Below, piece after piece: positions 14,342-25,140 of a DNA stretch of 64,000 nt (positions within the stretch are counted from its first letter, which is position 1; each line of letters opens with the position of its first letter). The stretch comes from an uncultured bacterium (GTDB taxonomy: Bacteria; Patescibacteriota; Minisyncoccia; UBA6257; GWB1-50-10). The translations under genes and the position numbers were made by a program. Under the pieces are notes generated by a model. It worked only from the letters and a program-made list of their open reading frames with translations, was not told where the DNA came from and did not search any database. Where the stretch lies: the NCBI GenBank assembly GCA_903827975.1, contig CAIKKG010000005.1, positions 372-64,371 of the forward strand. The letters run 5' to 3'.

Positions 14342-14466
14342 ACTCTAATTATATCATCCTTAAAAATAGTAATCTCATTCCTTATACTCATGAAAAATAG
14401 GCGCCTACGGTTCAAATCCTATTCTGTGTGTTTATTTGAAAATTGGAAATTAGACATTGGAAATTA

Positions 14467-14490: not shown

Positions 14491-14496
14491 TCCGTG

Positions 14497-14570
14497 TGCC
14501 CCCACTAGGATTTGAACCTAGGACCCACTGCTTAAAAGGCAGGTGCTCTACCAGGCTGAGCTATAGGGGC
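14497..14570 (-). tRNA. tRNA-Lys (anticodon TTT); CCA not encoded
   Basis: cloverleaf folds manually: acceptor GCCCCTA/TAGGGGC-like pairing, anticodon loop CUUUUAA, T-arm GGTTCAAATCC. Confidence 0.85.
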
Positions 14571-14697: not shown

Positions 14698-14769
14698 TCC
14701 CCGGTAGCTCAGTGGTAGAGCGGCGCGCTGTTAACGCGATGGTCGTAGGTTCGAATCCTACCCGGGGAG
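14698..14769 (+). tRNA. tRNA-Asn (anticodon GTT); CCA not encoded
   Basis: acceptor TCCCCGG/CCGGGGA, D-arm GCTCAGTGGTAGAGC, anticodon loop CTGTTAA, T-arm GTAGGTTCGAATCCTAC. Confidence 0.85.
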
Positions 14770-14771
14770 CA
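14754..14771 (+). repeat. attL core: 3' end of tRNA-Asn (aatcctacccggggagca), repeated exactly at 24181..24198
   Basis: 18/18 identity between the two copies, same orientation. Confidence 0.65.
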
Positions 14772-16326
14772 CGATAGGTTGAGAGGGCACGAAAGTGCTC
14801 TCTTTTCCTTTATTAGAGCCACCTTTCTCCAGTTCGAGAGTTTCATTTACTCGTGGCATCCATTCTGCCAAAAAGCCGAAGGCTTTTGTGTATTCTGGCT
14901 TTATTGTTCCTTGCAAAACAGAGATGTTCGAGAAAGCGTAAGCCAACAGCAATCGGCGCTCTTCCGTAGTTGCTTTATCGCTCTGATAGATCTTCCCAGC
15001 TCTCAATGCCAGCTCGTGAATCGCCACCCCAACTTTGTAATATTCAGTATTGTCCGAATTTAACTTTCTAAGAGATTCAGTTAAGATCTCTCGCTCTTGT
15101 CCAAAACTCTCAACCCTCTGATCATAGAACTCTGTTGAAATTCTGCCATCCAATTTATCTTCGTACATAATCTTTAGACGTTGCTGGATGCGCTGGAGGC
15201 TCGCATTAATGCCATTCACCTGCGCTTCGTGAAGTTCGATCTCCTTGCCGTGGCTCTCCTTTAGGGCTTTGTTGAGAATACCCATAATCCTCTCGTTTTT
15301 AGGCGCTACAGAGCTAATTTGAGCCATTAGGTGGCTTTCTACGTCCTCCTGTCGTATGTACTTCCTGTCGATGGCTAGCTGTGCCTTGCACTGTTTACAC
15401 CCGCCATACCATTGTCCTTTTTGGAGTTCCCAAGTGACCGTCTTTTTACAACTGCCGCAAAAGACTTTGCCTCTTAATTCCTTGATGTGCTTAACGTGGT
15501 AAGGGGCGCTTGATCGGGTTAACTTGGCTTTAACCTGCTCAAACAAATCACGAGAAATAATGGGTTCTTGTTTACCTTCGTACTCTTTATCCTTCCATAT
15601 AAATTTACCGTAATAGAATGGGTCTGAAAGTAGCGCGTGGATTTTACTTTTCACAACTCTGCCACCTCCACGACTACGAAAGCCACTCTCGTACATTTTC
15701 TCTCCCAAAGAAACTGTTGAGTAATTTCCCGTCGCGTAAAGTGTAAACATCTCTCTTATGCGTGGAGCAACATTTTCATCTATCACGTGGATCTTGTGAC
15801 CTTTTTCACCAATGGTTTTATATCCTAACGGTGGTTTAGTTGGAAGCCAACCTTGTGCAGTCTTCTCTTTCTGACCTTTCTTAACTTCTTCCGATAAGTT
15901 ATTGGTATAGAAGCGAGCCATAGCCACTTTCATATCCCATACAAAGTTTTCGTGTGCTCGCGTGTTTTTACTGACAACGAAGTTTTCTTTTACGAAGTGG
16001 ATTTCACGGCTTGCTCCTTCTAATATCCAGTCACTCGCAGTTGCCGCATCCTTAAGATTACGCGTTAAACGATCAATCTTCTCACACAGAATGACATTGA
16101 TGTTTTTATTGGTGACGTATTGGATCATCTCAATAAACATCTTTCTTATTTGTTTTCCACTTGCTGACTCTGTAACTTTGTAGATCTTTACCAGCTCAAA
16201 ACCTTTTTGTTCTGCATAATCCTTCAAGAGTTTTTCTTGCGCCTCCAAAGAATATCCTGTTTCCTCTTGTTCTTTTGAGGATACACGAGCGTAGATTACT
16301 GCTTTAATTTTCTTAGTAGTTTCCAT
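14758..16326 (-). CDS. large serine recombinase (resolvase/invertase catalytic domain + recombinase domain + zinc-ribbon/coiled-coil)
   Basis: N-terminal AVIYARVSSKEQ catalytic-Ser motif; 522 aa; CGSCKK...CKQCK zinc ribbon; 3' end overlaps tRNA-Asn 3' end. Confidence 0.85.
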   Translation of the reverse strand: METTKKIKAVIYARVSSKEQEETGYSLEAQEKLLKDYAEQKGFELVKIYKVTESASGKQIRKMFIEMIQYVTNKNINVILCEKIDRLTRNLKDAATASDWILEGASREIHFVKENFVVSKNTRAHENFVWDMKVAMARFYTNNLSEEVKKGQKEKTAQGWLPTKPPLGYKTIGEKGHKIHVIDENVAPRIREMFTLYATGNYSTVSLGEKMYESGFRSRGGGRVVKSKIHALLSDPFYYGKFIWKDKEYEGKQEPIISRDLFEQVKAKLTRSSAPYHVKHIKELRGKVFCGSCKKTVTWELQKGQWYGGCKQCKAQLAIDRKYIRQEDVESHLMAQISSVAPKNERIMGILNKALKESHGKEIELHEAQVNGINASLQRIQQRLKIMYEDKLDGRISTEFYDQRVESFGQEREILTESLRKLNSDNTEYYKVGVAIHELALRAGKIYQSDKATTEERRLLLAYAFSNISVLQGTIKPEYTKAFGFLAEWMPRVNETLELEKGGSNKGKESTFVPSQPIVLPG

Positions 16327-16356
16327 ATTGGCTCAGTTTAATTTTAACAGTTAAAG

Positions 16357-16587
16357 TTAATCATTAGTAGTATTTTCAGTGATTCCATTTGGCACTCTCT
16401 TGAGTACCTTGTAATAGCAATCTTGAAGAAACATACACATATCCTCCTGAATCTCTTTCTTTACCTCCTGAAAGAACTCGTCTGTCATTTCACCTATGAC
16501 ATCAAGATCTTCTTCTAGGTAATCGCGGCTAAGGATTGCTACAACATCAGGATCACTCCAACGATAATTTTCTCTTTCTTCGGTCAT
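16357..16587 (-). CDS. hypothetical acidic small protein
   Basis: 76-aa ORF tightly spaced between the RHH gene and the recombinase. Confidence 0.35.
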   Translation of the reverse strand: MTEERENYRWSDPDVVAILSRDYLEEDLDVIGEMTDEFFQEVKKEIQEDMCMFLQDCYYKVLKRVPNGITENTTND

Positions 16588-16597
16588 ATTTTTTTAA

Positions 16598-16834
16598 TTA
16601 AGATTGATAATTTGAGAAGAAGTGTTTGCAGATCTCATCGAGTAAGAAAGAGATTATTGTTCCTTCCGACTTGGAGAATTCCTTGAGCTTCTTGTGCCAT
16701 TTTTCACTGACTCGCACCTGCACTGTCTTCCGCTTTTCAGCTTTGCGGGCAAAGTATTTTCTGACTGCTTCGTTGTCCGCTTTTGCCTGTTCTATATCGG
16801 TGGATGTATAGAGTTTTTTCTGCTTTGTCGACAT
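16598..16834 (-). CDS. putative ribbon-helix-helix (CopG/Arc-like) DNA-binding protein
   Basis: basic N-terminus then TVQVRVSEKWHKKLKEFSKSEGTIISFLLDEI beta-alpha-alpha pattern. Confidence 0.4.
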   Translation of the reverse strand: MSTKQKKLYTSTDIEQAKADNEAVRKYFARKAEKRKTVQVRVSEKWHKKLKEFSKSEGTIISFLLDEICKHFFSNYQS

Positions 16835-17136
16835 ATTTTAAGAACACTTCTATTTCCCTCATCCCTGTCCTTGATGAGAGGCTGATAATGCTGTGTACGA
16901 GATATCTATTGGGGTTTCGACCTTTTCACCCTCAAGCGGTGAACGCCCAATACAGTTGCTCCCTGATGTGCAAATGAGGTCGCCCGTTGAGAAGTGTTCA
17001 CTCAGAGCGGGCGCTGGTATTTACACACCAAGCGAGTTGCAGTCGGTTTTTTTCAGGAGACTTACTGACGACTCCTGACATCTCGGTTGTCTCAAGGTTC
17101 AAACACCCAGATCTGCCTCGAATATATCGGGGCAGA

Positions 17137-17361
17137 TTAAGATTTTTGAGGCTCTGGTCGACTGTCAATTTTTGCGAGCAAGTCAAAATACGCCACAGAG
17201 TTCAGCAAGATCTCCGACGCGTCTTTGAGAGTCAGGACTACACCAAATTCTTCTTTGATGGCATCCTGAAATTCCTTAATTGTTTGCTCACTGACCATAG
17301 GATCATTAGACACGTTGACCCTATACGCTTTAAATACGCTTTTAGTATCTTTTGCAGTCAA
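17137..17361 (-). CDS. hypothetical small protein (start uncertain: TTG at 17361 or internal ATG)
   Basis: protein-like composition on the minus strand, versus the Arg/Cys-rich overlapping plus-strand ORF. Confidence 0.3.
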   Translation of the reverse strand: MTAKDTKSVFKAYRVNVSNDPMVSEQTIKEFQDAIKEEFGVVLTLKDASEILLNSVAYFDLLAKIDSRPEPQKS

Positions 17362-17362
17362 A

Positions 17363-17385
17363 AAAAGCCCTATTTAGGGCAATGC
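17363..17385 (-). terminator. rho-independent terminator after the wHTH gene
   Basis: minus-strand gccctaaatagggc followed by TTTTTTT. Confidence 0.55.
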
Positions 17386-17417
17386 GAGGAGGATATTAAC
17401 AGGAGCAAGAGCAGACT

Positions 17418-18044
17418 TTAGACAAAAGTCTTAATTACCTTGTATGGAGATTTTATACCGTATCCACTGCTTGATTTAGATTCAATAATATCTACCTTCA
17501 AAAAGTGATCTATGTTCTTCTTGATTTTACCTATTTCTGACCGTACGTTCTTTAGATCTTTACCGCCCAGATACTCTGAAATATCCTCCGTTCTTTGTAG
17601 ACCTACATTGTCGACAAGGTAGGTTAAAATTTTTAGACGCTCGCTATCTTCTCCAATATGGTAACAAAGTTTACTTTTATCGCCGTGCCAAAGATCTCCA
17701 TTTTTATCTAAATAGAGAATTGTGCTCGTACCATTGTTGGTAAGCCCTATCTCGCTCACTAATTCGGAAGCCCTTTCTCTGAAATAGCTAGAGAACCAGA
17801 TGTTATAGATATCGTAGTCTGGCTCTTCTTCATATTCAGCATCCTTTCCTGACCAGAACTCATATTTCTCAATGAGTCCCTTTTCTTTCAGGTTATCCAT
17901 AATGCGAATGAGATCTGCTCCGCTAACACCCTCACTCAACAGGTCATCTGCCTTAACCTCGATATGCCGCACCGTTTCTGCTCCCAATAAATGGGTTTGA
18001 AGCAGGTTATTGAGAACTATTGATATCTTGGCGTTCGCATCCAT
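17418..18044 (-). CDS. putative transcriptional regulator with C-terminal OmpR/PhoB-type winged helix and no receiver domain
   Basis: C-terminus LKILTYLVDNVGLQRTEDISEYLG...VRSEIGKIKKNI...SGYGI fits the trans_reg_C pattern; 12 nt downstream of the Type IIG gene. Confidence 0.45.
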   Translation of the reverse strand: MDANAKISIVLNNLLQTHLLGAETVRHIEVKADDLLSEGVSGADLIRIMDNLKEKGLIEKYEFWSGKDAEYEEEPDYDIYNIWFSSYFRERASELVSEIGLTNNGTSTILYLDKNGDLWHGDKSKLCYHIGEDSERLKILTYLVDNVGLQRTEDISEYLGGKDLKNVRSEIGKIKKNIDHFLKVDIIESKSSSGYGIKSPYKVIKTFV

Positions 18045-18055
18045 ATCGTTAATGC

Positions 18056-20809
18056 CTAACGGTCATCTTTAACAGAGCTCCGAATTCTGTATAGGTCTAG
18101 TAAAGATTTCTTAATGCTTTCTTTCAAATTAAGAAGATTGATCGGGGTTAAGACAGCAACGTCCAAGGCATCACGATCAGTCTTTGTAAGCTCATCTTCA
18201 AGATTAAAAATACCCCTTCGTTTAATAGCATTAAACTTGTCGAGAATGTCCTTTTTTTGATCCTCGCTATATAGCGATGGATTGAGAATAAATAAATCCT
18301 TCTCTAGTTTGTCCTTACTAAGATCAAGAGCTCCCTCACCTCTGCCTGTGCCTAAAGCCTCAATGTAAAAAAGACCGAGAGTGCTATTCAGTAAGGCGTG
18401 ACAGAGCTCAACATCAGTGCTTAGATCTTTGCGCGTAAAACGAACTAGTCGTTGATTTACGAAGGTTGGTTCTGCAAACTTAGCGAAGAACAATCTATCG
18501 CCAAAGTTAATACTCGTGACAATTTCAGCCATTGTAGTGGGTGTCATTGTGTACCACTCTATATTTGGTCTTCGAAGTGCTAAAGGAAGGGCAATGCCCG
18601 TGCCGTTAGTTTTAGACTCAAAACTCTTTATCCAATTTATAGCCCCACTTTTACCAGCTCTTTCTAGCTCATCAATAGATTCAGTACAACAAAACGCCAC
18701 AGCGTCTGGTTCAGCAGTCAGGTTGGTTATGGATCGAGGGGTTCTTAAAACTGGCTTTAAAAATTCTGGCTCAATCGAGTGTGTTCCTTCGGGATAAAAC
18801 ATATCATCCCAGCCTCTGCGTTCTCCTCTTGCTATCTCAAATAGAGTGGAAGCTTTTACAAGGAACGGCTCGAGAGCAGTGATCCAATTATTATCAGTAA
18901 ATAAACTATTTAAATTTAAGCCAAATTTTTTGAGTGCAGTAATATCGGAATTAGAATACGTATTGATATGAATATCATTTTCATCAACCGCCTCTTTTAG
19001 TGAGACCAGAGCGGTAAGTTCACTCATATCTTGATCGCTTATGTGCTTAAGTGGTCGTTTGGTTACAACAAATTTAGTTTTTAGAGCCTCGTCTTTAGCG
19101 GGCGTTGACTTCTTCTTCAGGATCACGATATTTGTAACGACTTTGGCGTTATCAAACCATCTTCCACTGCCTGAAGTAATCACTGACTCGATGTGATAAA
19201 AAGCACTAAGATTTTCAAAGAAGCCTTCTCCCCATTTCGTTCCAAGCCACGAGTTTGAAATTATGAACGCCAAAGTCCCTTCATTCCTAAGAAGTTTCCA
19301 GAAATAAAATGGTAAATATGCATACAAATCACTCCTGCCATCTAGTGCAGTATTTGAACCTAAGGTAGCTTCTATAAAATCATTGATGCTTGGAGCTTCT
19401 GGATTTAGAACCTCCATATCCTCTTGTTGCACAAATGGTAAATTTGAAATAATGCAATCGAATTCAGGTATCTTTACCTTAAGCAAACTCCCATTGTAAG
19501 GATCGCGTAAATCAATTTCTTTACCGACTTGAATTTTTGTCGCGTCTTCTTTAAAAACCTGCAAGACTTTTCCCATTGCTTCGGGATCAAGCATATTAAA
19601 CATTGCCATCTGCAATGGAAGAGAAAACTTGTCACTTGCCCAAGTTGTTTTTAAGGCATCCTCAACACCCAAAACAGCTTTCTTTTGCACGAGAATCTCC
19701 CTTGCGATTGTTCCACTTCCACAACAAGGATCGATAGCTATCGCATTTTTATTCTTCATCGCAAGACCCACAATGAACTTTGCTAACTCATTTGGGGTTG
19801 TAAACTGTCCTGCAAACTTTCTTTTGTTTCTATATACGGTGTGACCGATTAGATCGTGCAAGAGAGTTTTTTCAATATTCTGGAAGTTCAGTGCCTTCAG
19901 AAAACCATTGAAATCAATCATATCCGCCCAAACTTCTGCGGAGATATATTTTTCGGTTGGCTGTGTTTGAAATATATTCCAAAAATCCACCTTCTGACTA
20001 ATGTCTTGAAAGACCTGCAACCCATCTTGCAAGGAAGTTGTTGAGTCTATTTGGTCAATTTTATTTGCGTCGGATTGGTAAGATTTTAAAATATGAGCAA
20101 AAAGAAATTTGTTTATGAGATAGATTAAGTTCATCCTTGAAAGAACGACAAACTTGTCGGTTTCTTCTGGGTGATCGTTCTTGGCATATCTCCACCACAG
20201 ATTTACCTCTGCTTCGATATCAGAATCCTTCACGGATTCATTTTTTAGATTCTCTATATAGCTTCCAATATTCCTATCAATCAACTTTGAGACTTGTTCG
20301 CTATTTAAAACACTAACTACAGACGTGGCTTTTATTTGTCCGCTTTGGATATAATCGTTTAAATCATTAAGTATTTTATGCAACTCAATCTTGATCTCAT
20401 CAGCTTTTTGCTCAACCTCATCTCGAACGTGAATGTGTGATAGCCCATCCCAAATCTTAACTTTTTCAAGAGATCCATCTTCATTAATTTTGTATAGAAC
20501 AGCAACTGAAACATTCCAAAGCAAGAAGCTGTTGAGAGAAAGTAGATCTGCCTTCTTTTTTGCATTAAGAATAAACTCTTGATCGTTGATATCCGTATCA
20601 GGCATCTTTAACTCCCAGCCTTGTACAATTCTTCCCTTTATTTCATCACCAAAAAGCAATACGTCAGGAAAAAGTGACTTCTTGTTTTCCTTCAACGTGT
20701 TTTCACCGCCCGCACGTTTTATTGAGGTGTTTTTAGTTGAAGCCCAGAGATTAATCTCGCTAATTAGATCTATTGCCCAACTTCTCTCATTGTAATTAAT
20801 TGTTGGCAT
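18056..20809 (-). CDS. Type IIG (MmeI-like) restriction-modification enzyme: N-terminal PD-ExK nuclease + gamma-class N6-adenine methyltransferase + C-terminal target-recognition region
   Basis: 917 aa (MmeI is ~919); N-terminal FPDVLLFGDE...GWELK (PD...ExK); motif X/I FTTPNELAKFIV...IDPCCGSGTIAREI; motif IV IISNLPFVQ (non-canonical NLPF). Confidence 0.65.
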   Translation of the reverse strand: MPTINYNERSWAIDLISEINLWASTKNTSIKRAGGENTLKENKKSLFPDVLLFGDEIKGRIVQGWELKMPDTDINDQEFILNAKKKADLLSLNSFLLWNVSVAVLYKINEDGSLEKVKIWDGLSHIHVRDEVEQKADEIKIELHKILNDLNDYIQSGQIKATSVVSVLNSEQVSKLIDRNIGSYIENLKNESVKDSDIEAEVNLWWRYAKNDHPEETDKFVVLSRMNLIYLINKFLFAHILKSYQSDANKIDQIDSTTSLQDGLQVFQDISQKVDFWNIFQTQPTEKYISAEVWADMIDFNGFLKALNFQNIEKTLLHDLIGHTVYRNKRKFAGQFTTPNELAKFIVGLAMKNKNAIAIDPCCGSGTIAREILVQKKAVLGVEDALKTTWASDKFSLPLQMAMFNMLDPEAMGKVLQVFKEDATKIQVGKEIDLRDPYNGSLLKVKIPEFDCIISNLPFVQQEDMEVLNPEAPSINDFIEATLGSNTALDGRSDLYAYLPFYFWKLLRNEGTLAFIISNSWLGTKWGEGFFENLSAFYHIESVITSGSGRWFDNAKVVTNIVILKKKSTPAKDEALKTKFVVTKRPLKHISDQDMSELTALVSLKEAVDENDIHINTYSNSDITALKKFGLNLNSLFTDNNWITALEPFLVKASTLFEIARGERRGWDDMFYPEGTHSIEPEFLKPVLRTPRSITNLTAEPDAVAFCCTESIDELERAGKSGAINWIKSFESKTNGTGIALPLALRRPNIEWYTMTPTTMAEIVTSINFGDRLFFAKFAEPTFVNQRLVRFTRKDLSTDVELCHALLNSTLGLFYIEALGTGRGEGALDLSKDKLEKDLFILNPSLYSEDQKKDILDKFNAIKRRGIFNLEDELTKTDRDALDVAVLTPINLLNLKESIKKSLLDLYRIRSSVKDDR

Positions 20810-21626
20810 ATGTTTTGATTTTCAACTTCGGATTTACTTCCTTGATGCGTTTTTCAGTAATAGAGATCAAATCTACTTTCTTTTTTTGATGCAGATCGGT
20901 CTCTTTATTTAGCTCTATTCCTACAAACTTTCTATCCTCCAAAGCAGCAGAGACCAAGAAACTTCCACTCCCAGAAGTATTATCTAGCACCAACTCACCT
21001 TTATTTGTGTATGTCCTGATCAAATACTGACCCAATTCAACTGGCTTTTGCGTAGGATGGTACACCTCACCTTCGCTTTCTGCTGTCTTAAAGTAAATAA
21101 CATCACTAGGGTAGCGCTTACCGTCACTTTTAACTTCTTGCGAGTTAAAATCACCATAACTGCCAGTAAGCTGGTTTTTCCTAAAGCCTTTGTTATACGG
21201 CTCACCCTCTGACATTTGAGGGTTGTAAGTAGGTTGGTATATTTTGTTTCTATAAAAAATACAAACATCCTCGTGTTTTCGTAGAGGCTGCTTTTTTGCA
21301 TTTAAGAAATTAGTCGCCTTGGATTTTACCCAAGAAAGTTTGTACTTAAATAGTGTTGTATTGCTCATAATAAGTTGAGCCGTAAAAACACCTTGTGAAG
21401 TAAGAGCGATGACGCCATTAGGCTTTATTATTCGTTCGTACTCCTTCCAAAGTTCTTCAAGGGGTATTATGCTGTCCCATTTGTTTTGGGTTGTACCGTA
21501 AGGCAAATCACACAAAATCATATCCACACTCTTATCTGGAAAGCGTGACATCACGCTCAAACAATCACCCTCAAATAGGCTGTTCTCTATTTGTTTTTTT
21601 GTAAGCTTTTTAGTTGGCATAATCAT
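20796..21626 (-). CDS. beta-class DNA methyltransferase (N6-adenine or N4-cytosine)
   Basis: motif IV DLPYGT precedes motif I NTSGSGSF (IV-then-I order means beta class); 276 aa. Confidence 0.8.
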   Translation of the reverse strand: MIMPTKKLTKKQIENSLFEGDCLSVMSRFPDKSVDMILCDLPYGTTQNKWDSIIPLEELWKEYERIIKPNGVIALTSQGVFTAQLIMSNTTLFKYKLSWVKSKATNFLNAKKQPLRKHEDVCIFYRNKIYQPTYNPQMSEGEPYNKGFRKNQLTGSYGDFNSQEVKSDGKRYPSDVIYFKTAESEGEVYHPTQKPVELGQYLIRTYTNKGELVLDNTSGSGSFLVSAALEDRKFVGIELNKETDLHQKKKVDLISITEKRIKEVNPKLKIKTYANN

Positions 21627-21796
21627 TTGATTGTTGTCTTTTTGAGAAAAATCTCAAACTCACTCTTGCCAATCCTGAACTCTTTTCCTATTTTATGAGC
21701 TCTAATTTTGTGGGCTTTGATGTAGCGATAAATGGTCATTATATTGACCTGCAACTTGTCCGCTAAATCTTGAGCTGTATAAAATTCTTTATTCAT
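21623..21796 (-). CDS. excisionase-family HTH DNA-binding protein (57 aa), possible R-M controller or Xis; not in the ORF track
   Basis: own translation MNKEFYTAQDLADKLQVNIMTIYRYIKAHKIRAHKIGKEFRIGKSEFEIFLKK matches the excisionase/MerR-type HTH pattern; ATGA overlaps with both neighbours. Confidence 0.5.
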   Translation of the reverse strand: MNKEFYTAQDLADKLQVNIMTIYRYIKAHKIRAHKIGKEFRIGKSEFEIFLKKTTIK

Positions 21797-22557
21797 ATTC
21801 TCTTGAGCTGTTCCATAACTCTACCCGCTAAATCCCTCTTATCAATCATAAATGCGTCCCACTTATTACTATCCTTCTTTTGCTTTCCAGAAACAAAACC
21901 GAGTAAGTCGTTTTTGTCTTTGTGCGCCATACGAATGAAGTCTGGAGCTGGCACAAACCAGACATAGTCGTGGACATCGCCCTTAGACGTGTCGAACAGA
22001 CAAAAAACAAAAGCCATTGAATAATTGTCTACTGCGCTTCGCTGTTTAACCGTTGCAACAAACGGACGACTAAAGTCTTCGCTAAAATTACTTTTAATCT
22101 GTATGTAAATAGATTTTAGACTCCCTTTTTCTTTTACAATGAGATCTATACCTTCGTCATCAGAGAGGGGGCGGTAGCACGAAAGATTAGTGCCATAGAG
22201 CAGGACTAGTTCCGAGACACGCGCTTCAACAATGTTTCCTTTTTGCACAGACATCAAAGTGTCTGAAACTTTATATTCTTTTTCTTCGTGCTCTTCGCTA
22301 AGTTCCTCCTCTTGCTTTATTGTCTTTATTGTCTCGTTTAGTGCAAAAGTACTTGGAGCTGTTTTAATAAAAAGTGAACCTGATCCTTTTTTATTTACAT
22401 CCACTACAAGTTGGGCGTTCATTGTAGCCGCAGGAGTTTTGCCAGCAGTTTTAAGCCAACCACGCTTTAGGGCAATTTTTGTAATCTCCTCGTAGTGGAG
22501 TGGTTTATCAGCTTCTTTGAGGATTTCATAGGCAACGCCCTTAAACGTGTTTACCAT
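21793..22557 (-). CDS. HARE-HTH domain fused to a PD-(D/E)xK restriction-endonuclease-like domain
   Basis: N-terminus FKGVAYEILKEADKPLHYEEITKIALKRGWLKTAGKTPAATMNAQL = HARE-HTH pattern; C-terminus DDEGIDLIVKEK...IQIK nuclease-like. Confidence 0.5.
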   Translation of the reverse strand: MVNTFKGVAYEILKEADKPLHYEEITKIALKRGWLKTAGKTPAATMNAQLVVDVNKKGSGSLFIKTAPSTFALNETIKTIKQEEELSEEHEEKEYKVSDTLMSVQKGNIVEARVSELVLLYGTNLSCYRPLSDDEGIDLIVKEKGSLKSIYIQIKSNFSEDFSRPFVATVKQRSAVDNYSMAFVFCLFDTSKGDVHDYVWFVPAPDFIRMAHKDKNDLLGFVSGKQKKDSNKWDAFMIDKRDLAGRVMEQLKRI

Positions 22558-22619
22558 AGATTTAATTATACTTTACAATGCTTTACACAACAATTAGATA
22601 TGTGGATAATGATTGATAT

Positions 22620-23435
22620 ATGGCACTTATAGCATCAAGAATATTGAGTGATCGGCTAGATTTTGAAACTCATCTCAAATACGCTTCTCGACTCGCCAAG
22701 CTTACAACAGGACTTTCTGTTACTTGTTCTATAAAACCTCTCTTAGTCAAATCAAAAATTACAAATCTTCAAAATAAATCAAAACTGATTGAGCTTACAA
22801 AAAAATCAATAAAGGATGAGCACGAGATAGTTCAGTTTGATAAGGAGTATTCCACTGCTTCGGTATTATGGTTACCCATTAAAACTTATTACTTAACCTA
22901 CCACCTGCTCTGCACAATCGAGTACCTTTTGGGTGGGAATGAGGGATCTTTGTCAGAAAAGCATTACAAGTGTATGGATATTTTCACAAAAAGGCTCTCG
23001 GATGGAACTTTAAAATTCAGTGAACCATTACTAAATAGTGTTTTTGATAAATCAATTCTAAATTTTCGAACAACATCAGGTGAACACCTAAGAACAGGTG
23101 TTTCGGATGAGATTATCTACAAATTGCTAATGAAAAAAGTTGCCAACGACAAGATAGAGAATTTTAAGGTCGCCAATGGCATACCAGACGTGAGAAGCCT
23201 TAAGAATAAGGAACGAGTGGAGAAATTTAAAAACTCTTTAACAGTATCCGTGTTCGACTTTTTTCACCTGATGCGACTAAGAATGAATTACCGAAACTTT
23301 GATTTTGTTGATTCTGTAACGTCATCGAATACAAAGGCGTATTTTGAGGAGTATTACAAAGCGTCAGGTTATTTCTATACAGCCCTCAATAACCTAAAAA
23401 ACAAGATAATAACTGACATTTCAGTTGGAAGCTGA
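22620..23435 (+). CDS. hypothetical protein (Lys-rich, helical; candidate abortive-infection/defence accessory)
   Basis: 271-aa ORF divergent from the R-M operon; N-terminal R-x5-H (RLDFETH); no confident family assignment. Confidence 0.35.
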   Translation: MALIASRILSDRLDFETHLKYASRLAKLTTGLSVTCSIKPLLVKSKITNLQNKSKLIELTKKSIKDEHEIVQFDKEYSTASVLWLPIKTYYLTYHLLCTIEYLLGGNEGSLSEKHYKCMDIFTKRLSDGTLKFSEPLLNSVFDKSILNFRTTSGEHLRTGVSDEIIYKLLMKKVANDKIENFKVANGIPDVRSLKNKERVEKFKNSLTVSVFDFFHLMRLRMNYRNFDFVDSVTSSNTKAYFEEYYKASGYFYTALNNLKNKIITDISVGS

Positions 23436-23939
23436 ATGTTCTAATTCGGTATACTTTTTCGCAAAATTACCCATCGCTCTTTTGATAAGTGCTATCTGTT
23501 CTGGGTCAATACTGTGTCTGTCTGATACTTCACCTGTGTGATGCACCTGCGCCCGTGTTGAGAACTCTAGGGGACGCTTACGTTCAAGATACTTTAAAGC
23601 AAGGTCAGCATCGTGCTCTGCCGCGGCTACAACACGTTTACGTAGGACAAAAGAGACTGCGTGCCGTAACTGATCAATTCTGTCCGAAAAGTCGGAGTTT
23701 TGCTTACAGAAATCGTAGTACGTATTTCTTGAAATGCCCGCGTAAAGACAGGACTCTTCAACCGTACAGTCATATACAAAAGCGTGTTCTAGTTTTCGGA
23801 CAACCTCCTGCGTCATTACAGTAGGTCTTCCTGTCCTACCGTGTTTCGGGGCAATCTTGCCCTTAAGCACATAGGCATTGCGCTTGGCGTACTGCTCAAC
23901 CTCACTTACTTTTGGAAATATTATCTTTTTTCTCGTCAT
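23421..23939 (-). CDS. phage terminase small subunit-like (HTH) protein
   Basis: GRPTVMTQEVVRKLEHAF...GISRNTYYDFCKQNSDF matches the TerS GRPTKYT...GIS..T.Y.W pattern. Confidence 0.5.
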   Translation of the reverse strand: MTRKKIIFPKVSEVEQYAKRNAYVLKGKIAPKHGRTGRPTVMTQEVVRKLEHAFVYDCTVEESCLYAGISRNTYYDFCKQNSDFSDRIDQLRHAVSFVLRKRVVAAAEHDADLALKYLERKRPLEFSTRAQVHHTGEVSDRHSIDPEQIALIKRAMGNFAKKYTELEHSASN

Positions 23940-24034
23940 ATAAAATTAGTTCGCCAAAGCCAACAACCTACCTATGGTTGCCACGTGATAGTCAGGATTA
24001 GGGTAGATACTGACCCAATCCATAGTTCGAAAAG

Positions 24035-24146
24035 CGTCCCTCCACGCGAGCTAATGAAAATTAAAACGGCATAAATGCCGTTTTAGTTTTTATCTCGGGT
24101 AGTATTCGAACCGAAGGTGCCCAAAAACAAAGAGCTGAGCGATTAT
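24035..24146 (+). repeat. ~110-bp repeat, copy A (inside island, next to attR); contains hairpin aaaacggcat..atgccgtttt and an inverted tRNA-Asn 3'-like segment ctcgggtagtattcgaacc
   Basis: near-identical to 25006..25140. Confidence 0.65.
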
Positions 24147-24180
24147 GTTTTTGGCGCATCTCGACCGAAGAGAGAGGCGA

Positions 24181-24198
24181 AATCCTACCCGGGGAGCA
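24181..24198 (+). repeat. attR core: exact copy of tRNA-Asn 3' 18 nt
   Basis: aatcctacccggggagca. Confidence 0.65.
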
Positions 24199-24261
24199 AA
24201 ATTTTAAACCATATTTTATAATGGTTATTTTTTGGAGGTTAGTAGAAGCTCGAACCTAGTA

Positions 24262-24267
24262 TATAAT
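24262..24267 (+). promoter_or_regulatory. -10 hexamer TATAAT 7 nt upstream of ATG 24275 (leaderless start)
   Basis: spacing -10 to ATG = 7 nt, no SD. Confidence 0.4.
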
Positions 24268-24274
24268 ACATGGT

Positions 24275-24967
24275 ATGACAAAAAATAATAAAATAATTTA
24301 TTTGATAATTGTAATTGCGATATTTGCATTTACTTTTTTAATTTGGAGAACTGGAGTTTTTAATAATTATCTTCCATTTTTTCTTACTACTGACGGTTGG
24401 AATAAAAATGAACGTGAAATAAATAAACTAAATAATAATTTAGAACCCTCAAGAGAACCTTATCCAGATTGTAAATGGAAAAAAGTAATTGGTGCTGGTC
24501 TCGAAATTTGGGGTCAATCTTGTGATTATGGAGATAAAAAATTAGAAGTTAATGCAAGTGAGACATTGCCAGGAATGTTTTTGGAAGATGTTACCAAAGG
24601 AAGCCCTGTTGCAATAGAACAATTAATTCAAATTTTTAATTTAGAAAATAAATCTATTGATAGTGTCATTCCATTATTATCTGATAGTAAAGATTGGAAA
24701 GTTACAGATAAATGTATTTTTACAAAAGTTTCTATTAATCGAAGTGACGTCGCTAGGTATACATTAATGCCAACAGGGGCTGCTTTAAAAAAATTCGAGA
24801 GTGACGGTAAGAATGAACCCATAACAAGTACTTGTGCGGGATACGGTATGGGTAACAGTGGGGTTCAGTATTTTGAAATATATAATTCAAACCCTAATAA
24901 AGTTTTATTTATAAATGCTGGACAAGAACTACCTATGTTTGATGAAAATACTATTGTTGTTAAATAA
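24275..24967 (+). CDS. hypothetical membrane-anchored/secreted protein, very AT-rich (likely acquired cargo)
   Basis: N-terminal TM IIYLIIVIAIFAFTFLIW; flanked by repeats A and B. Confidence 0.45.
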   Translation: MTKNNKIIYLIIVIAIFAFTFLIWRTGVFNNYLPFFLTTDGWNKNEREINKLNNNLEPSREPYPDCKWKKVIGAGLEIWGQSCDYGDKKLEVNASETLPGMFLEDVTKGSPVAIEQLIQIFNLENKSIDSVIPLLSDSKDWKVTDKCIFTKVSINRSDVARYTLMPTGAALKKFESDGKNEPITSTCAGYGMGNSGVQYFEIYNSNPNKVLFINAGQELPMFDENTIVVK

Positions 24968-25005
24968 TTATGTACTATTGTTCTTCAACAATACTTTTCC
25001 GAACA

Positions 25006-25140
25006 TCGTCCCACTTGCGGAGCTAATGAAAATTAAAACGGCATTTACGCCGTTTTAATTTTTATCTCGGGTAGTATTCGAACCTTTTACAGTAGTACTT
25101 GAAGATTGGGTGAATTGTACCAATAGAGCTGAGTGATATA
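25006..25140 (+). repeat. ~110-bp repeat, copy B (outside island)
   Basis: shares agctaatgaaaattaaaacggcat and tttttatctcgggtagtattcgaacc blocks and the downstream agagctgag[c/t]gat block with copy A. Confidence 0.65.

What the first reader, a model, noticed from the sequence alone, without database searches (positions are those of the whole stretch)
14754..24198. ~9.4-kb integrated island at tRNA-Asn bounded by exact 18-bp direct repeats of the tRNA 3' end
The last 18 nt of tRNA-Asn (aatcctacccggggagca, 14754-14771) recur exactly at 24181-24198. The 9.4 kb in between is transcribed leftwards and is unrelated to the plus-strand housekeeping on both sides.

The cargo, from the attL side to the attR side, is:
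- a large serine recombinase abutting attL, an RHH protein and a winged-HTH regulator;
- an MmeI-like Type IIG enzyme and a beta-class methyltransferase;
- an Xis-like HTH, a HARE-HTH nuclease and a TerS-like gene;
- one 271-aa unknown protein on the plus strand.

This is a compact, defence-loaded mobile element in what looks like a CPR genome.
Basis: partly seen in the sequence, partly recalled or inferred. Interest (0 to 1): 0.75.

Follow-up and report, generated by a model that had tools for sequence, protein, structure and literature searches.

The report
Self-splitting serine-integrase defence island at tRNA-Asn
A 9.3-kb mobile island carrying restriction-modification genes sits at the end of a tRNA-Asn gene in a tiny CPR bacterium, but it is bounded by a 4-base crossover site rather than by the 18-base repeat, and inserting there cuts the last 33 codons off the island's own integrase gene, something so far described only for archaeal integrases.

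Summary
The 18-bp repeat is real and exact (14754-14771 and 24181-24198), and an island is there, but the repeat does not bound it. Contigs from near-identical strains (flanks 99.9-100% identical) carry the empty site. In them tRNA-Asn up to 14770 joins directly to 24048, with a 4-nt overlap GAGC. The island is therefore 14771-24047 (9,277 bp). The second 18-bp copy lies 130 bp outside it and is also present in empty sites. It belongs to a neighbouring 972-bp cassette.

The host is a Candidatus Jorgensenbacteria (CPR). The gene calls are mostly confirmed: large serine recombinase (LSR), Arc-like protein, Type IIG enzyme (not MmeI family), beta-class methyltransferase, HTH_17, HARE-HTH nuclease, TerS homologue and a 271-aa unknown. 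The winged-HTH call is not confirmed.

The new point is that the attP crossover lies inside the LSR gene. Integrated, the LSR is 522 aa and stops inside the antisense tRNA. In the excised circle it would be 553 aa, regaining a 33-aa tail encoded at the far end of the island (23946-24047). This tail is conserved under purifying selection in relatives and is contiguous with the gene in a 7.67-kb circular contig.

The LSR family is large, mostly from Patescibacteria, and uses the same GCTC core at tRNA-Asn or tRNA-Gln. At least three different islands occupy this same site in this species.

The parts
14698..14770 (+). tRNA-Asn (GTT), the integration target. The mature sequence is unchanged by integration.
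   Evidence: ARAGORN and Rfam, 71 bits. It is identical in empty-site contigs up to 14770.
14767..14770 (.). attL crossover core GAGC (GCTC on the LSR strand). It covers the acceptor-stem end, the discriminator and one further base of tRNA-Asn.
   Evidence: 4-nt overlap between the two junctions and the empty site. The same GCTC, with an invariant Leu codon CTC, sits at the same offset from the tRNA 3' end in 29 related loci.
14781..14804 (+). Island-supplied terminator-like hairpin that replaces the native tRNA-Asn terminator. It lies inside the LSR coding region (peptide ESTFVPS).
   Evidence: Terminator scan. The native terminator at 24062-24085 is displaced to attR.
14758..16326 (-). Large serine recombinase, integrated isoform (522 aa). 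Its last 4 codons and the stop lie in the antisense tRNA.
   Evidence: Pfam Resolvase 4e-26, Recombinase 3.7e-14, Zn_ribbon_recom 3e-4. phrog_95 integrase 1e-76. The AF2 model of a homologue matches full-length serine integrase structures, E about 1e-17.
16357..16587 (-). 76-aa unknown protein, weakly conserved in related islands.
   Evidence: No family hit. 37% identity over 40 aa in L111.
16598..16834 (-). Arc/RHH-like small DNA-binding protein; a backbone gene.
   Evidence: phrog_3180 Arc-like repressor 2.9e-6. Homologues sit next to the LSR in L003, L015-L023 and L111, at 47-74% identity.
17137..17361 (-). Small protein p74 (conserved part is residues 22-74). It is the most widespread partner of this LSR family and a candidate accessory or directionality factor.
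   Evidence: Homologue just upstream of the LSR in 30 of 79 genome loci, in the circular and putatively circular contigs L094 and L096, and in the inovirus-like L103-L105. No family hit.
17418..18044 (-). 208-aa backbone protein of unknown function.
   Evidence: No Pfam, PHROG or PADLOC hit; only a sub-threshold Csa3 HTH match. Conserved in L015, L016, L021-L023 and L111.
18056..20809 (-). Single-chain Type IIG restriction-modification enzyme (917 aa): N-terminal PD-(D/E)XK-like motif, gamma N6A methyltransferase, TaqI_C-like target-recognition domain.
   Evidence: PADLOC REase_MTase_IIG PDLC03606, 1021 bits over its full length. Pfam N6_Mtase and Eco57I. No MmeI match.
20796..21626 (-). Beta-class N4/N6 DNA methyltransferase. 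It overlaps the start of the IIG gene.
   Evidence: Pfam N6_N4_Mtase 3.8e-25. PADLOC MTase_II 4e-65.
21623..21796 (-). HTH_17 (excisionase/MerR-like) 57-aa protein; a backbone gene.
   Evidence: Pfam HTH_17 5.7e-11. 72% identity in L009, L018 and L111.
21793..22557 (-). HARE-HTH protein with a weak PD-(D/E)XK nuclease match. Putative restriction nuclease; cargo specific to this island.
   Evidence: HARE-HTH 2.9e-20; PDDEXK_5 0.0044, below cut-off. Not found in related loci.
22620..23435 (+). 271-aa backbone protein of a CPR-restricted family. Function unknown.
   Evidence: 77 homologues, none with a Pfam domain. 83% identity in island L111, next to HTH_17. Promoter-like site at 22582-22610.
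23421..23939 (-). Terminase small subunit (TerS) homologue.
   Evidence: phrog_4102, 6e-23. Best tblastn hits are Streptococcus satellite prophages and phages, where the gene lies immediately upstream of a 464-aa protein, a portal-sized protein and a Mu F-like protein, which is the usual terS position.
23946..24047 (-). Detached 3' end of the LSR gene ('tail exon'): AWRDAFRTMDWVSIYPNPDYHVATIGRLLALAN plus stop. It joins Leu520 only in the excised circle, and it is also the P arm of attP/attR.
   Evidence: Reconstruction. The same detached tail is found in 8 related integrated islands with dN/dS 0.13-0.3. It is contiguous with the gene in L094 and L096.
24048..24051 (.). attR crossover core GAGC.
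24048..24112 (+). Host flank R65a: native tRNA-Asn terminator (24062-24085) plus an inverted tRNA-Asn 3'-end fragment (24096-24110). It is the B' arm of attB.
   Evidence: Directly follows tRNA-Asn in empty sites. Terminator scan. Fragment search.
24181..24198 (+). Second copy of the 18-mer. This tRNA-Asn 3'-end fragment is part of the neighbouring 972-bp cassette and is not an att site of the island.
   Evidence: Present in empty sites B and C, absent in E.
24975..25023 (-). Relic attR of an older LSR element: remnant tail LRKWDDVRKSIVEEQ plus stop, then the core GAGC at 25020-25023.
   Evidence: It matches the short-tail LSR type (P0065 and L086, LLRTWDDVR).
25020..25084 (+). R65b, a direct repeat of R65a (94% identity). 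Together the two repeats bound the 972-bp cassette carrying the 230-aa gene (24275-24967).
   Evidence: BLAST, alignment.

Best explanation
This is a 9,277-bp integrative island (14771-24047) of a Candidatus Jorgensenbacteria bacterium.

How it integrates. Its own large serine recombinase inserted it at the 3' end of tRNA-Asn by conservative site-specific recombination within the 4-nt core GAGC. The tRNA is left intact and receives a replacement terminator from the island.

The split gene. The attP crossover lies inside the recombinase gene, at the invariant Leu520 codon. Integration therefore separates the gene from its last 33 codons, which end up 9.3 kb away at attR. The chromosome encodes a 522-aa enzyme that stops in the antisense tRNA. 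The excised circle would encode a 553-aa enzyme followed, 6 nt later, by the TerS-like gene.

Backbone and cargo. The island has a conserved backbone: LSR, Arc-like protein, p74, p208, HTH_17, p271 and the tail. It also has an exchangeable cargo slot. Here the slot holds a Type IIG restriction-modification enzyme, a beta-class methyltransferase and a HARE-HTH nuclease.

Shown: the boundaries, the empty site, the split gene, conservation of the tail, family-wide tRNA targeting, and alternative islands at the same site.

Inferred: that the two isoforms differ in activity or direction; that p74 and/or HTH_17 act as accessory factors; that the restriction-modification genes protect the host or stabilise the island; and that TerS allows packaging by a helper phage.
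For: Boundaries:
- Empty-site contigs from two samples and two assemblers join 14770 to 24048 with flanks 99.9-100% identical to the window.
- Three further contigs (L012-L014) show the empty site without the neighbouring cassette.
- Contig L008 ends, and L102 starts, within about a base of the core.

Recombinase:
- Pfam, PHROG and NCBIfam matches.
- The AF2 model of the 58%-identical full-length homologue P0076 has the catalytic, recombinase, zinc-ribbon and coiled-coil parts. It matches serine integrase-att complexes 9dxd/9dxh, Bxb1 9iu2 and LI 4kis.

Split gene:
- The reconstructed circle gives a 553-aa ORF.
- The tail motif L-A-W-R-D-A-F-R-T-x-D-W...LLAL is contiguous with the gene in homologues P0076, P0097, P0102 and P0113.
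- It is also contiguous in L094, a contig with a 127-nt terminal overlap (a 7,671-bp circle) and no tRNA.
- Detached tails are intact in the window, in island D and in L015, L016, L017, L020, L023, L027 and L037. dN/dS is 0.13-0.22 among the closest pairs and the median is 0.28.
- A TAG immediately precedes the tail frame in the integrated state (read directly from the sequence at 24048-24056).

Family:
- 2,580 homologues at E<=1e-20.
- 99 of the 120 closest have C-termini that are antisense tRNA sequence.
- In 29 genome loci (19 tRNA-Asn, 10 tRNA-Gln) the Leu codon CTC, preceded by G, sits at the same offset from the tRNA 3' end.

Hot spot:
- Island D in GCA_026396755.1 is about 15.8 kb, has a 77.5%-identical LSR and different cargo, and uses the same core.
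- Island F is represented by L099/L100.
- A relic attR lies at 25020.

Backbone versus cargo: L111 shares LSR, Arc, p74, p208, HTH_17 and p271 but carries a different restriction-modification system. Cargo in other relatives is mostly defence genes.

Composition: tetranucleotide distance z=3.8.
Against: - No excised circle or attP junction of this particular element was found. All six contigs carrying its TerS are integrated, and the junction is absent from JGI metagenome contigs.
- No experiment shows that either LSR isoform is active. The tail is short, is joined by a low-confidence linker (pLDDT<50 over residues 500-520) and has only moderate model confidence.
- The tail DNA is also the P arm of attP, so part of its conservation could be at the DNA level.
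- No dyad symmetry was detected in the reconstructed attP.
- Presence/absence between strains could in principle arise by homologous exchange through the identical flanks rather than by the LSR.
- The promoter and terminator scans are consensus matches for sigma-70 type signals and may not apply to CPR bacteria.
Confidence: 0.8

Rival explanations
1. One reading: a classical tRNA-integrating island spanning 14754-24198, whose attL and attR are the 18-bp direct repeats of the tRNA 3' end, as for tyrosine-integrase elements.
For: The 18-bp repeat is exact and non-random. tRNA 3' ends are the usual targets of tyrosine integrases (Mageeney 2020, PMC7192596).
Against: - Empty sites keep 24048-24198, including the second 18-mer.
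- The integrase is a serine recombinase.
- The last base of the left 18-mer is island DNA.
- Island D ends at the same GAGC core and has no second 18-mer in the sequence retrieved (L003, L009).
Confidence: 0.02
2. A locked-in, no longer mobile remnant. Because integration truncates the LSR, the island cannot excise by itself. Presence/absence among strains then reflects old integration events, or homologous replacement through the identical flanks.
For: - No circle of this element was found.
- In archaeal SSV-type systems a split integrase blocks self-excision unless an intact copy is supplied in trans (PMC8371274).
- Flanks are 99.9-100% identical, so homologous exchange is feasible.
Against: - All island genes and the tail are intact.
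- The truncated LSR keeps every canonical domain.
- At least three different LSR islands (A, D, F), a relic attR and at least two empty alleles occur at the same core in strains with about 99.7-100% identical flanks, which points to frequent site-specific turnover.
- A relative exists as a circle.
Confidence: 0.15
3. A phage satellite (PICI-like). The island excises when a helper phage infects and uses its TerS to redirect the helper's packaging to itself; the defence genes are cargo. This adds to the best explanation and does not replace it.
For: - The TerS homologue has its best matches in 8.7-11 kb Streptococcus satellite prophages and in the terS position of Streptococcus phages.
- Satellite-like size, with the integrase at one end and terS at the other.
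- There are no capsid, tail or large-terminase genes.
- In the circle terS would lie 6 nt after the LSR stop, whereas in the chromosome it is preceded by a terminator-like hairpin and no promoter-like site.
Against: - No replication module (primase/Rep) was detected.
- TerS is absent from every related island examined, so it is cargo rather than backbone.
- No helper phage is known.
- The integrase is not of the tyrosine type used by described PICIs (my own knowledge).
Confidence: 0.3
4. A decayed inovirus-like prophage that kept only its integration module and picked up defence genes.
For: The three close IMG/VR relatives of the LSR (47-49% identity) appear inovirus-like. Zot and Rep G2P were confirmed individually in L103, and each family was matched by three proteins of the pooled relatives' set. 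All three carry a p74 homologue.
Against: No Rep, Zot or coat-like gene is present in the island. Closer relatives (L015-L023, L111, island D, circle L094) also lack them.
Confidence: 0.05

Closest known systems
Large serine integrases of temperate phages and integrative elements (Bxb1, PhiC31, TP901-1, Listeria A118/LI, SCCmec CcrAB)
   Same: - Resolvase catalytic domain, recombinase domain and zinc ribbon with coiled coil.
- A minimal identity block between attP and attB (4 nt), consistent with a 2-nt staggered cut.
- The integrase gene lies next to one end of the element.
   Different: - The target is the 3' end of a tRNA gene. In 2020 this was described for serine integrases as 'not reported previously' and was predicted for only 14 of 297 elements (PMC7192596). 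tRNA is not mentioned at all in the 6,207-LSR survey PMC10083194.
- attP lies inside the integrase ORF.
- Sequence identity to solved LSR structures is only 10-18%.
Archaeal 'suicidal' SSV-type tyrosine integrases (SSV1, pTN3, pT26-2)
   Same: The recombination site lies within the integrase gene, so integration partitions the gene and the intact gene exists only in the free element. The target is a tRNA gene. The module is a compact integrase plus att unit (PMC8371274).
   Different: - Unrelated enzyme family: serine, not tyrosine.
- Bacterial host. [quoted passage not shown]
- Only a 33-aa C-terminal tail is detached. The catalytic and DNA-binding domains stay in one piece, so the integrated copy may remain active.
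Integration-dependent immunity of mycobacteriophages such as BPs (Broussard et al. 2013; recalled from my own knowledge, not read here)
   Same: attP lies inside a phage gene, so integration changes the C-terminus of its product. This yields different protein isoforms in the free and integrated states.
   Different: There the split gene is the repressor and the integrase is a tyrosine recombinase. Here the split gene is the serine integrase itself. No degradation-tag function has been shown for the tail.
PICI-type phage satellites and tycheposons carrying terS
   Same: An island of about 9 kb at a tRNA gene, with an integrase at one end, small regulators, a lone terS and adaptive or defence cargo.
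   Different: No replication module was found, the integrase is of the serine type, and terS is not part of the conserved backbone of this island family.
Type IIG restriction-modification enzymes (Eco57I type; MmeI as an architectural analogue)
   Same: A single polypeptide with an N-terminal nuclease motif, an N6A methyltransferase and a target-recognition domain. It gives a full-length match to PADLOC model PDLC03606 and is accompanied by a separate methyltransferase, as in Eco57I systems (the Eco57I system organisation is from my own knowledge).
   Different: No match to the MmeI-specific Pfam families or to the MmeI structure. The only PDB sequence match is M.BseCI.

Membership tests
Large serine recombinase (serine integrase) | N-terminal resolvase-type catalytic domain | tested here: met
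   Pfam Resolvase 4e-26 over residues 9-159. TP901-1 integrase catalytic domain 3bvp, 1e-8.
Large serine recombinase (serine integrase) | C-terminal recombinase domain plus zinc ribbon with an inserted coiled coil | tested here: met
   Pfam Recombinase 3.7e-14; Zn_ribbon_recom 3e-4, below cut-off. The AF2 model of homologue P0076 shows long helices at 345-448 inside a beta-rich domain and matches full-length LSR-att complexes at E about 1e-17.
Large serine recombinase (serine integrase) | Short att sites sharing only a few bases around a central dinucleotide | tested here: met
   attL, attR and the empty attB share only GAGC. The exact cleavage dinucleotide was not determined.
Large serine recombinase (serine integrase) | Excision requires a recombination directionality factor | not testable with these tools
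   The candidates are p74 (present in 30 of 79 loci and in the circular contigs) and HTH_17. No interaction or activity test was possible.
Classical tRNA-integrating genomic island (tyrosine integrase type) | Tyrosine integrase gene in the island | tested here: not met
   No Phage_integrase hit among the island proteins.
Classical tRNA-integrating genomic island (tyrosine integrase type) | Island bounded by direct repeats that duplicate the tRNA 3' part | tested here: not met
   The second 18-mer lies outside the island and is present in empty sites.
Suicidal (SSV-type) integrases | attP located within the integrase gene, so the gene is split on integration | tested here: met
   The crossover is at the Leu520 codon and the tail is at the other end of the island.
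Suicidal (SSV-type) integrases | Tyrosine recombinase of the Phage_integr_3 type, split into two fragments thought to be inactive, Int(N) and the catalytic Int(C) | tested here: not met
   The enzyme is a serine recombinase and only 33 C-terminal residues are removed.
PICI / phage satellite | Integrase, small regulators and a packaging-hijack gene (terS) in an island of about 10 kb without structural genes | tested here: met
   LSR, Arc-like protein, HTH_17 and a TerS homologue; no capsid, tail or large-terminase hits.
PICI / phage satellite | Own replication module (primase/replicase plus origin) | tested here: not met
   No such family matched in Pfam, PHROGs or NCBIfam. p208 and p271 remain unknown, so a novel replication protein cannot be excluded.
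PICI / phage satellite | Induction and packaging by a helper phage | not testable with these tools
   No helper phage was identified.
MmeI family (Type IIL/IIG) | MmeI-specific domains (MmeI_N, MmeI_hel, MmeI_Mtase, MmeI_TRD, MmeI_C) | tested here: not met
   None matched the 917-aa enzyme, and there was no PDB match to MmeI. The 1003-aa enzyme of island D does carry MmeI_hel and MmeI_Mtase, both weak hits.
Type IIG restriction-modification enzyme | Nuclease and methyltransferase in one polypeptide | tested here: met
   PADLOC REase_MTase_IIG, 1021 bits, residues 3-915 against 3-933 of 935 profile positions. A PD...ELK motif is seen at residues 48-68. Activity not tested.

The most novel reading that the evidence does not exclude
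These CPR elements carry the first bacterial, and first serine-family, self-splitting integrase module. Because attP lies inside the gene, the full-length enzyme (with a conserved C-terminal helical tail) and the downstream TerS gene are made only from the excised circle, while the chromosome makes a tail-less enzyme. The tail would then act as a built-in state sensor that sets the direction of recombination or the stability of the enzyme. It would replace or supplement a separate directionality factor. It would also explain the rapid swapping of defence islands at tRNA-Asn and tRNA-Gln across Patescibacteria.
Probability: 0.4. Interest if true: 0.85.

Novelty: new variant of a known kind. Interest (0 to 1): 0.7.

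Why it matters
- Serine integrases are the main tools for inserting large DNA segments. What sets their direction is an active question, as the serine integrase-RDF complex structures released in 2026 show.
- A natural family in which integration itself removes a conserved C-terminal segment gives a directly testable pair of isoforms, 553 aa versus 522 aa.
- The family also supplies a short, highly conserved, ready-made target: the GAGC end of tRNA-Asn or tRNA-Gln.
- For CPR/Patescibacteria biology, it identifies a common vehicle that moves restriction-modification and other defence systems between strains of organisms with very small genomes and few known mobile elements.
- It extends the 'integrase split by its own att site' arrangement, thought to be exclusive to archaea, to bacteria and to an unrelated enzyme family.
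- It is a practical warning as well. Direct repeats of a tRNA end near an integrase are not necessarily the att sites, and automated annotation of these integrases reports proteins whose C-termini are antisense tRNA sequence.

Tried and rejected
- Dyad symmetry in the reconstructed attP: no centre gave 12 or more of 25 complementary positions.
- An excised circle of this element: the TerS look-up returned only integrated contexts, and the 24-nt attP junction is absent from JGI metagenome contigs. The samples that hold this strain are ENA and Logan samples and could not be searched at read level.
- MmeI membership of the Type IIG enzyme: rejected.
- Functions for p76, p74, p208 and p271: nothing above threshold in Pfam, PHROGs or NCBIfam for any of the four, nor in PADLOC, where all but the Arc-like protein were scanned. 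The p271 homologues are all unannotated.
- The 24090-24198 stretch as a tRNA pseudogene or small RNA: Rfam and ARAGORN find nothing there. It is better explained as tRNA-end fragments within a cassette.
- The resemblance of the P arm to the tRNA T-arm (TTCGAA): explained instead by the tail codons F-R-T (TTT CGA AC).
- A fully resolved history of the 972-bp cassette. The best fit is Campbell-type insertion of a circle [R65-X-18-mer-230-aa gene-relic tail-core] into an E-type site. DNA downstream of the TspO gene in the TspO variant (configuration C) was not available to test this.
- Inovirus origin: rejected for this island.

Full report
**1. The observation**

ARAGORN and Rfam place tRNA-Asn(GTT) at 14698-14770 on the + strand and tRNA-Lys at 14496-14570 on the - strand. 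The 18-mer AATCCTACCCGGGGAGCA occurs exactly twice, at 14754-14771 and 24181-24198. None is expected by chance.

- LSR of 522 aa: Resolvase 4e-26, Recombinase 3.7e-14, phrog_95 1e-76.
- Arc-like protein of 78 aa.
- A 208-aa protein with no supported fold. The 'winged HTH' call is unconfirmed.
- A 917-aa Type IIG enzyme that matches PADLOC PDLC03606 over its full length (1021 bits). It matches no MmeI family and no MmeI structure.
- A beta-class N6_N4 methyltransferase.
- An HTH_17 protein.
- A HARE-HTH protein with a sub-threshold PD-(D/E)XK match.
- A 271-aa unknown on the + strand.
- A TerS homologue (phrog_4102, 6e-23).

The host is a Candidatus Jorgensenbacteria, a CPR bacterium, judging by the name a public record gives to the window's FtsZ.

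**2. The true boundaries**

Exact-protein look-ups of the flanking genes returned contigs from other samples.

- L001/L011 (ERZ18667937) and L002 (ERZ27313599) are 99.9-100% identical to the window on both sides. They join 14770 directly to 24048, and the two junctions overlap by GAGC.
- The island is therefore 14771-24047, which is 9,277 bp.
- attB reads ...CCCGGG-GAGC-TAATGAAAATTAAAACGGCAT...
- attL reads ...CCCGGG-GAGC-ACGATAGGTTGAGAGGGC...
- attR reads ...CCCTCCACGC-GAGC-TAATGAAAA...

The second 18-mer lies 130 bp to the right of the island and is present in these empty sites. The final A of the left 18-mer is island DNA, so the 18-bp identity is partly coincidental.

A 4-nt overlap is what a serine integrase produces. 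An 18-bp duplication would suggest a tyrosine integrase, and the island has none.

The island differs from the host in tetranucleotide usage: distance 0.198 against 0.124 +/- 0.019 for host windows of equal size, z=3.8. GC content barely differs, 0.396 against 0.384.

**3. What the 18-mer belongs to**

The stretch 24048-24112 (R65a) is the native tRNA terminator plus an inverted tRNA-Asn end fragment. It recurs at 25020-25084 (R65b) with 94% identity.

Contigs L012-L014 show tRNA-Asn followed directly by one R65 copy and then the 70-aa gene. They have no second 18-mer and no 230-aa gene. So 24048-25019 is a separate 972-bp cassette bounded by 65-bp direct repeats.

Its right end, read on the minus strand, encodes L-R-K-W-D-D-V-R-K-S-I-V-E-E-Q-stop immediately before a GAGC core. 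That is a relic attR of a 'short-tail' LSR, compare LLRTWDDVR in P0065 and L086.

In another strain (L007) the same position holds a TspO gene behind an exact copy of the 18-mer. The 18-mer is thus one of several tRNA-Asn end fragments left at a recombination hot spot.

The layout fits insertion of a circle [R65-X-18-mer-230-aa gene-relic tail-core] into an empty site. This history is inferred.

**4. The integrase gene spans attP**

The LSR ORF runs across attL and ends ...P-I-V-L-P-G-stop. The TAG stop is at 14758-14760, inside the antisense tRNA.

Joining the island ends gives a 553-aa ORF...P-I-V-L-AWRDAFRTMDWVSIYPNPDYHVATIGRLLALAN-stop. The stop at 23946-23948 lies 6 nt before the TerS start codon at 23939.

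In the chromosome a TAG directly precedes the tail frame (CAT TAG CTC), so the tail cannot be read from the host side.

Island D in GCA_026396755.1 uses the same tRNA position and the same stop codon. Its detached tail is LEWRSAFRMFDWQGEFSNYEFHLRNIANLISLAK.

**5. This is a family property**

The LSR has 2,580 homologues at E<=1e-20. The named ones come from Paceibacterota, Nomurabacteria and Kaiserbacteria.

Of the 120 closest homologues:

- 99 end in sequence that is antisense tRNA (...LLRG, ...VLPG, ...LLRRQDSNLRPID).
- 11 end in a tail. Four of these carry the long motif L-[AT]-W-[RQ]-D-x-F-R...LLALV.

A scan of one genome per species gave 79 loci. Among the 50 loci whose alignment reaches residue 520, 29 have an ARAGORN-called antisense tRNA at that position (19 tRNA-Asn, 10 tRNA-Gln). 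In those 29 the invariant Leu is CTC preceded by G, at a fixed offset from the tRNA 3' end.

Detached tails, each preceded by GCTC and a host terminator, were found 5-10 kb upstream of the LSR in L015, L016, L017, L023, L027 and L037, and about 1 kb upstream of a disrupted LSR in L020. All are intact ORFs of 33-34 codons. dN/dS is 0.13-0.22 among the closest pairs, with a median of 0.28 over 24 pairs.

Contig L094 (7,798 nt) has a 127-nt exact terminal overlap, so it is a 7,671-bp circle. It has no tRNA and carries a contiguous LSR with ...TGG CTC GCT TGG... at the junction. L096 is similar, with a 24-nt terminal overlap.

Homologues in Bacteroidota-labelled contigs also have the tail contiguous with the gene. 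So the tail is an ancestral part of the protein.

An AF2 model of the full-length homologue P0076 (pLDDT 84) shows the canonical LSR domains. A low-confidence linker (residues 500-520) ends at the crossover Leu, followed by short helices at 522-551 with pLDDT 64-80. The model matches serine integrase-att complexes, Bxb1, PhiC31 and LI integrase.

The linker peptide KESTFVPSHP is conserved yet predicted to be disordered. Its DNA is the P' arm and the replacement terminator hairpin (14781-14804). Its conservation is therefore probably at the DNA level; this is inferred.

**6. Backbone and cargo**

Homologues of p74 lie just upstream of the LSR in 30 of 79 loci, in L094 and L096, and in three IMG/VR relatives. 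One of these, L103, was confirmed to carry Zot and Rep G2P.

L111 shares these genes with the window island:

| Gene | Identity |
|---|---|
| LSR | 67% |
| Arc-like | 74% |
| p74 | 60% |
| p208 | 48% |
| HTH_17 | 72% |
| p271 | 83% |

L111 carries a different restriction-modification set: two C5 methyltransferases and a BpuJI_N/NOV_C nuclease.

Island D carries an MmeI-like enzyme, a PLD-SNF2 helicase, an HNH protein and a tyrosine recombinase. Other relatives carry HpaII restriction-modification, a reverse transcriptase, an OLD-type nuclease, AbiEii-like and STAND ATPases.

The family is therefore a conserved vehicle with an exchangeable slot that mostly holds defence genes.

TerS and the HARE-HTH nuclease are specific to this island. 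The best TerS matches are Streptococcus satellite prophages (46% identity over 105 aa) and the terS position of Streptococcus phages.

In the chromosome, TerS is preceded by the host's bidirectional terminator and by no promoter-like site. This fits expression from the LSR operon of the circle. The evidence for that is weak.

**7. Comparison with what is known**

- Mageeney et al. 2020 state that use of a t(m)RNA gene by a serine integrase 'has not been reported previously'. They predicted it for 14 of 297 elements (PMC7192596).
- The survey of 6,207 LSRs by Durrant et al. does not mention tRNA at all (PMC10083194).
- Searches for bacterial or serine-family counterparts found none. The searchable library is incomplete.

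The island itself is a new member of a known kind, a serine-integrase defence island. The integration module is a new variant: it targets a tRNA end and splits its own gene.

**8. Verdict**

The boundary claim is wrong, and the more interesting feature was missed.

Confidence in the boundaries and in the split gene is about 0.9. Confidence that the isoform switch has a regulatory role is about 0.4. Confidence in the satellite reading is about 0.3.

Noticed in passing
window 24048-25084: A 972-bp cassette sits next to the island. It holds R65a, the second 18-mer, a terminator and the 230-aa secreted or membrane-looking protein gene (24275-24967). It is bounded by 65-bp direct repeats and ends in a relic LSR tail plus a GAGC core. 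It is present in some empty-site strains and absent in others.
   Followed up: partly
L007:1-700 (ERZ27313599 k141_87483): In another strain the slot behind the exact 18-mer holds a TspO/MBR gene instead of the 230-aa gene. The 130-bp stretch between the tRNA and the 18-mer is noticeably diverged there; only its last 47 nt give a BLAST match (91%). DNA downstream of the TspO gene was not retrievable.
   Followed up: partly
L003:1-9571 and L009:1-9092 (GCA_026396755.1 JAPLWF010000009.1, about 69449-85211): A different island of about 15.8 kb sits at the same tRNA-Asn core in a 99.97%-identical genome. It carries an LSR (77.5% identity), an MmeI-like 1003-aa enzyme, a PLD-SNF2 1160-aa helicase, HTH_17, a 695-aa unknown, an HNH_5 protein, a tyrosine recombinase and DUF488.
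   Followed up: partly
L099/L100:1-3880 (GCA_037131435.1; SRR12676967): A third island type sits at the same site. Its attR side encodes a short tail (L-R-M-L-D-E-V-R), and its cargo includes a 1174-1197 aa protein with a LexA_DNA_bind domain.
   Followed up: no
window 14373-14421: A tRNA-like 3'-half fragment (GGCGCCTACGGTTCAAATCCTA...) lies between the cupredoxin gene and tRNA-Lys. It resembles a segment of L007 in the opposite orientation and may be another relic of integration.
   Followed up: no
window 16987-17421 (+) versus 17137-17361 (-): The gene calls returned with the encoding-contig look-ups list a 144-aa ORF on the + strand here. The conserved gene is the small one on the - strand (p74), which is called as a 57-58 aa gene in L094, L111 and L003. 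The 144-aa ORF is probably a mis-call.
   Followed up: partly
L094:1-7798 (JGI 3300042261 Ga0451520_0018642): A circular 7,671-bp element with a full-length LSR, a p74 homologue, DUF2726 and otherwise unknown genes. No replication protein is recognisable.
   Followed up: partly
L103-L105 (IMG/VR UViGs): The same LSR family (47-49% identity), together with p74, appears in three IMG/VR viral contigs. L103 was confirmed to carry Zot and Rep G2P genes, and L103 and L105 carry a D12 methyltransferase and a reverse transcriptase respectively.
   Followed up: partly
L036, L068, L081, L089 and L048, L066, L069, L087: Family members occur in MAGs labelled as archaea (Pacearchaeota, Methanoperedens, Bathyarchaeia, Nanoarchaeia) and as Bacteroidota/Chitinophagaceae. 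This could be binning contamination or real cross-phylum spread. The Bacteroidota-labelled copies have the tail contiguous with the gene.
   Followed up: no
window 31833-31936 and 33006-33109: Two 104-nt segments, 75% identical, lie inside the 884-aa PAS histidine kinase gene. They are probably internal PAS-domain repeats.
   Followed up: no
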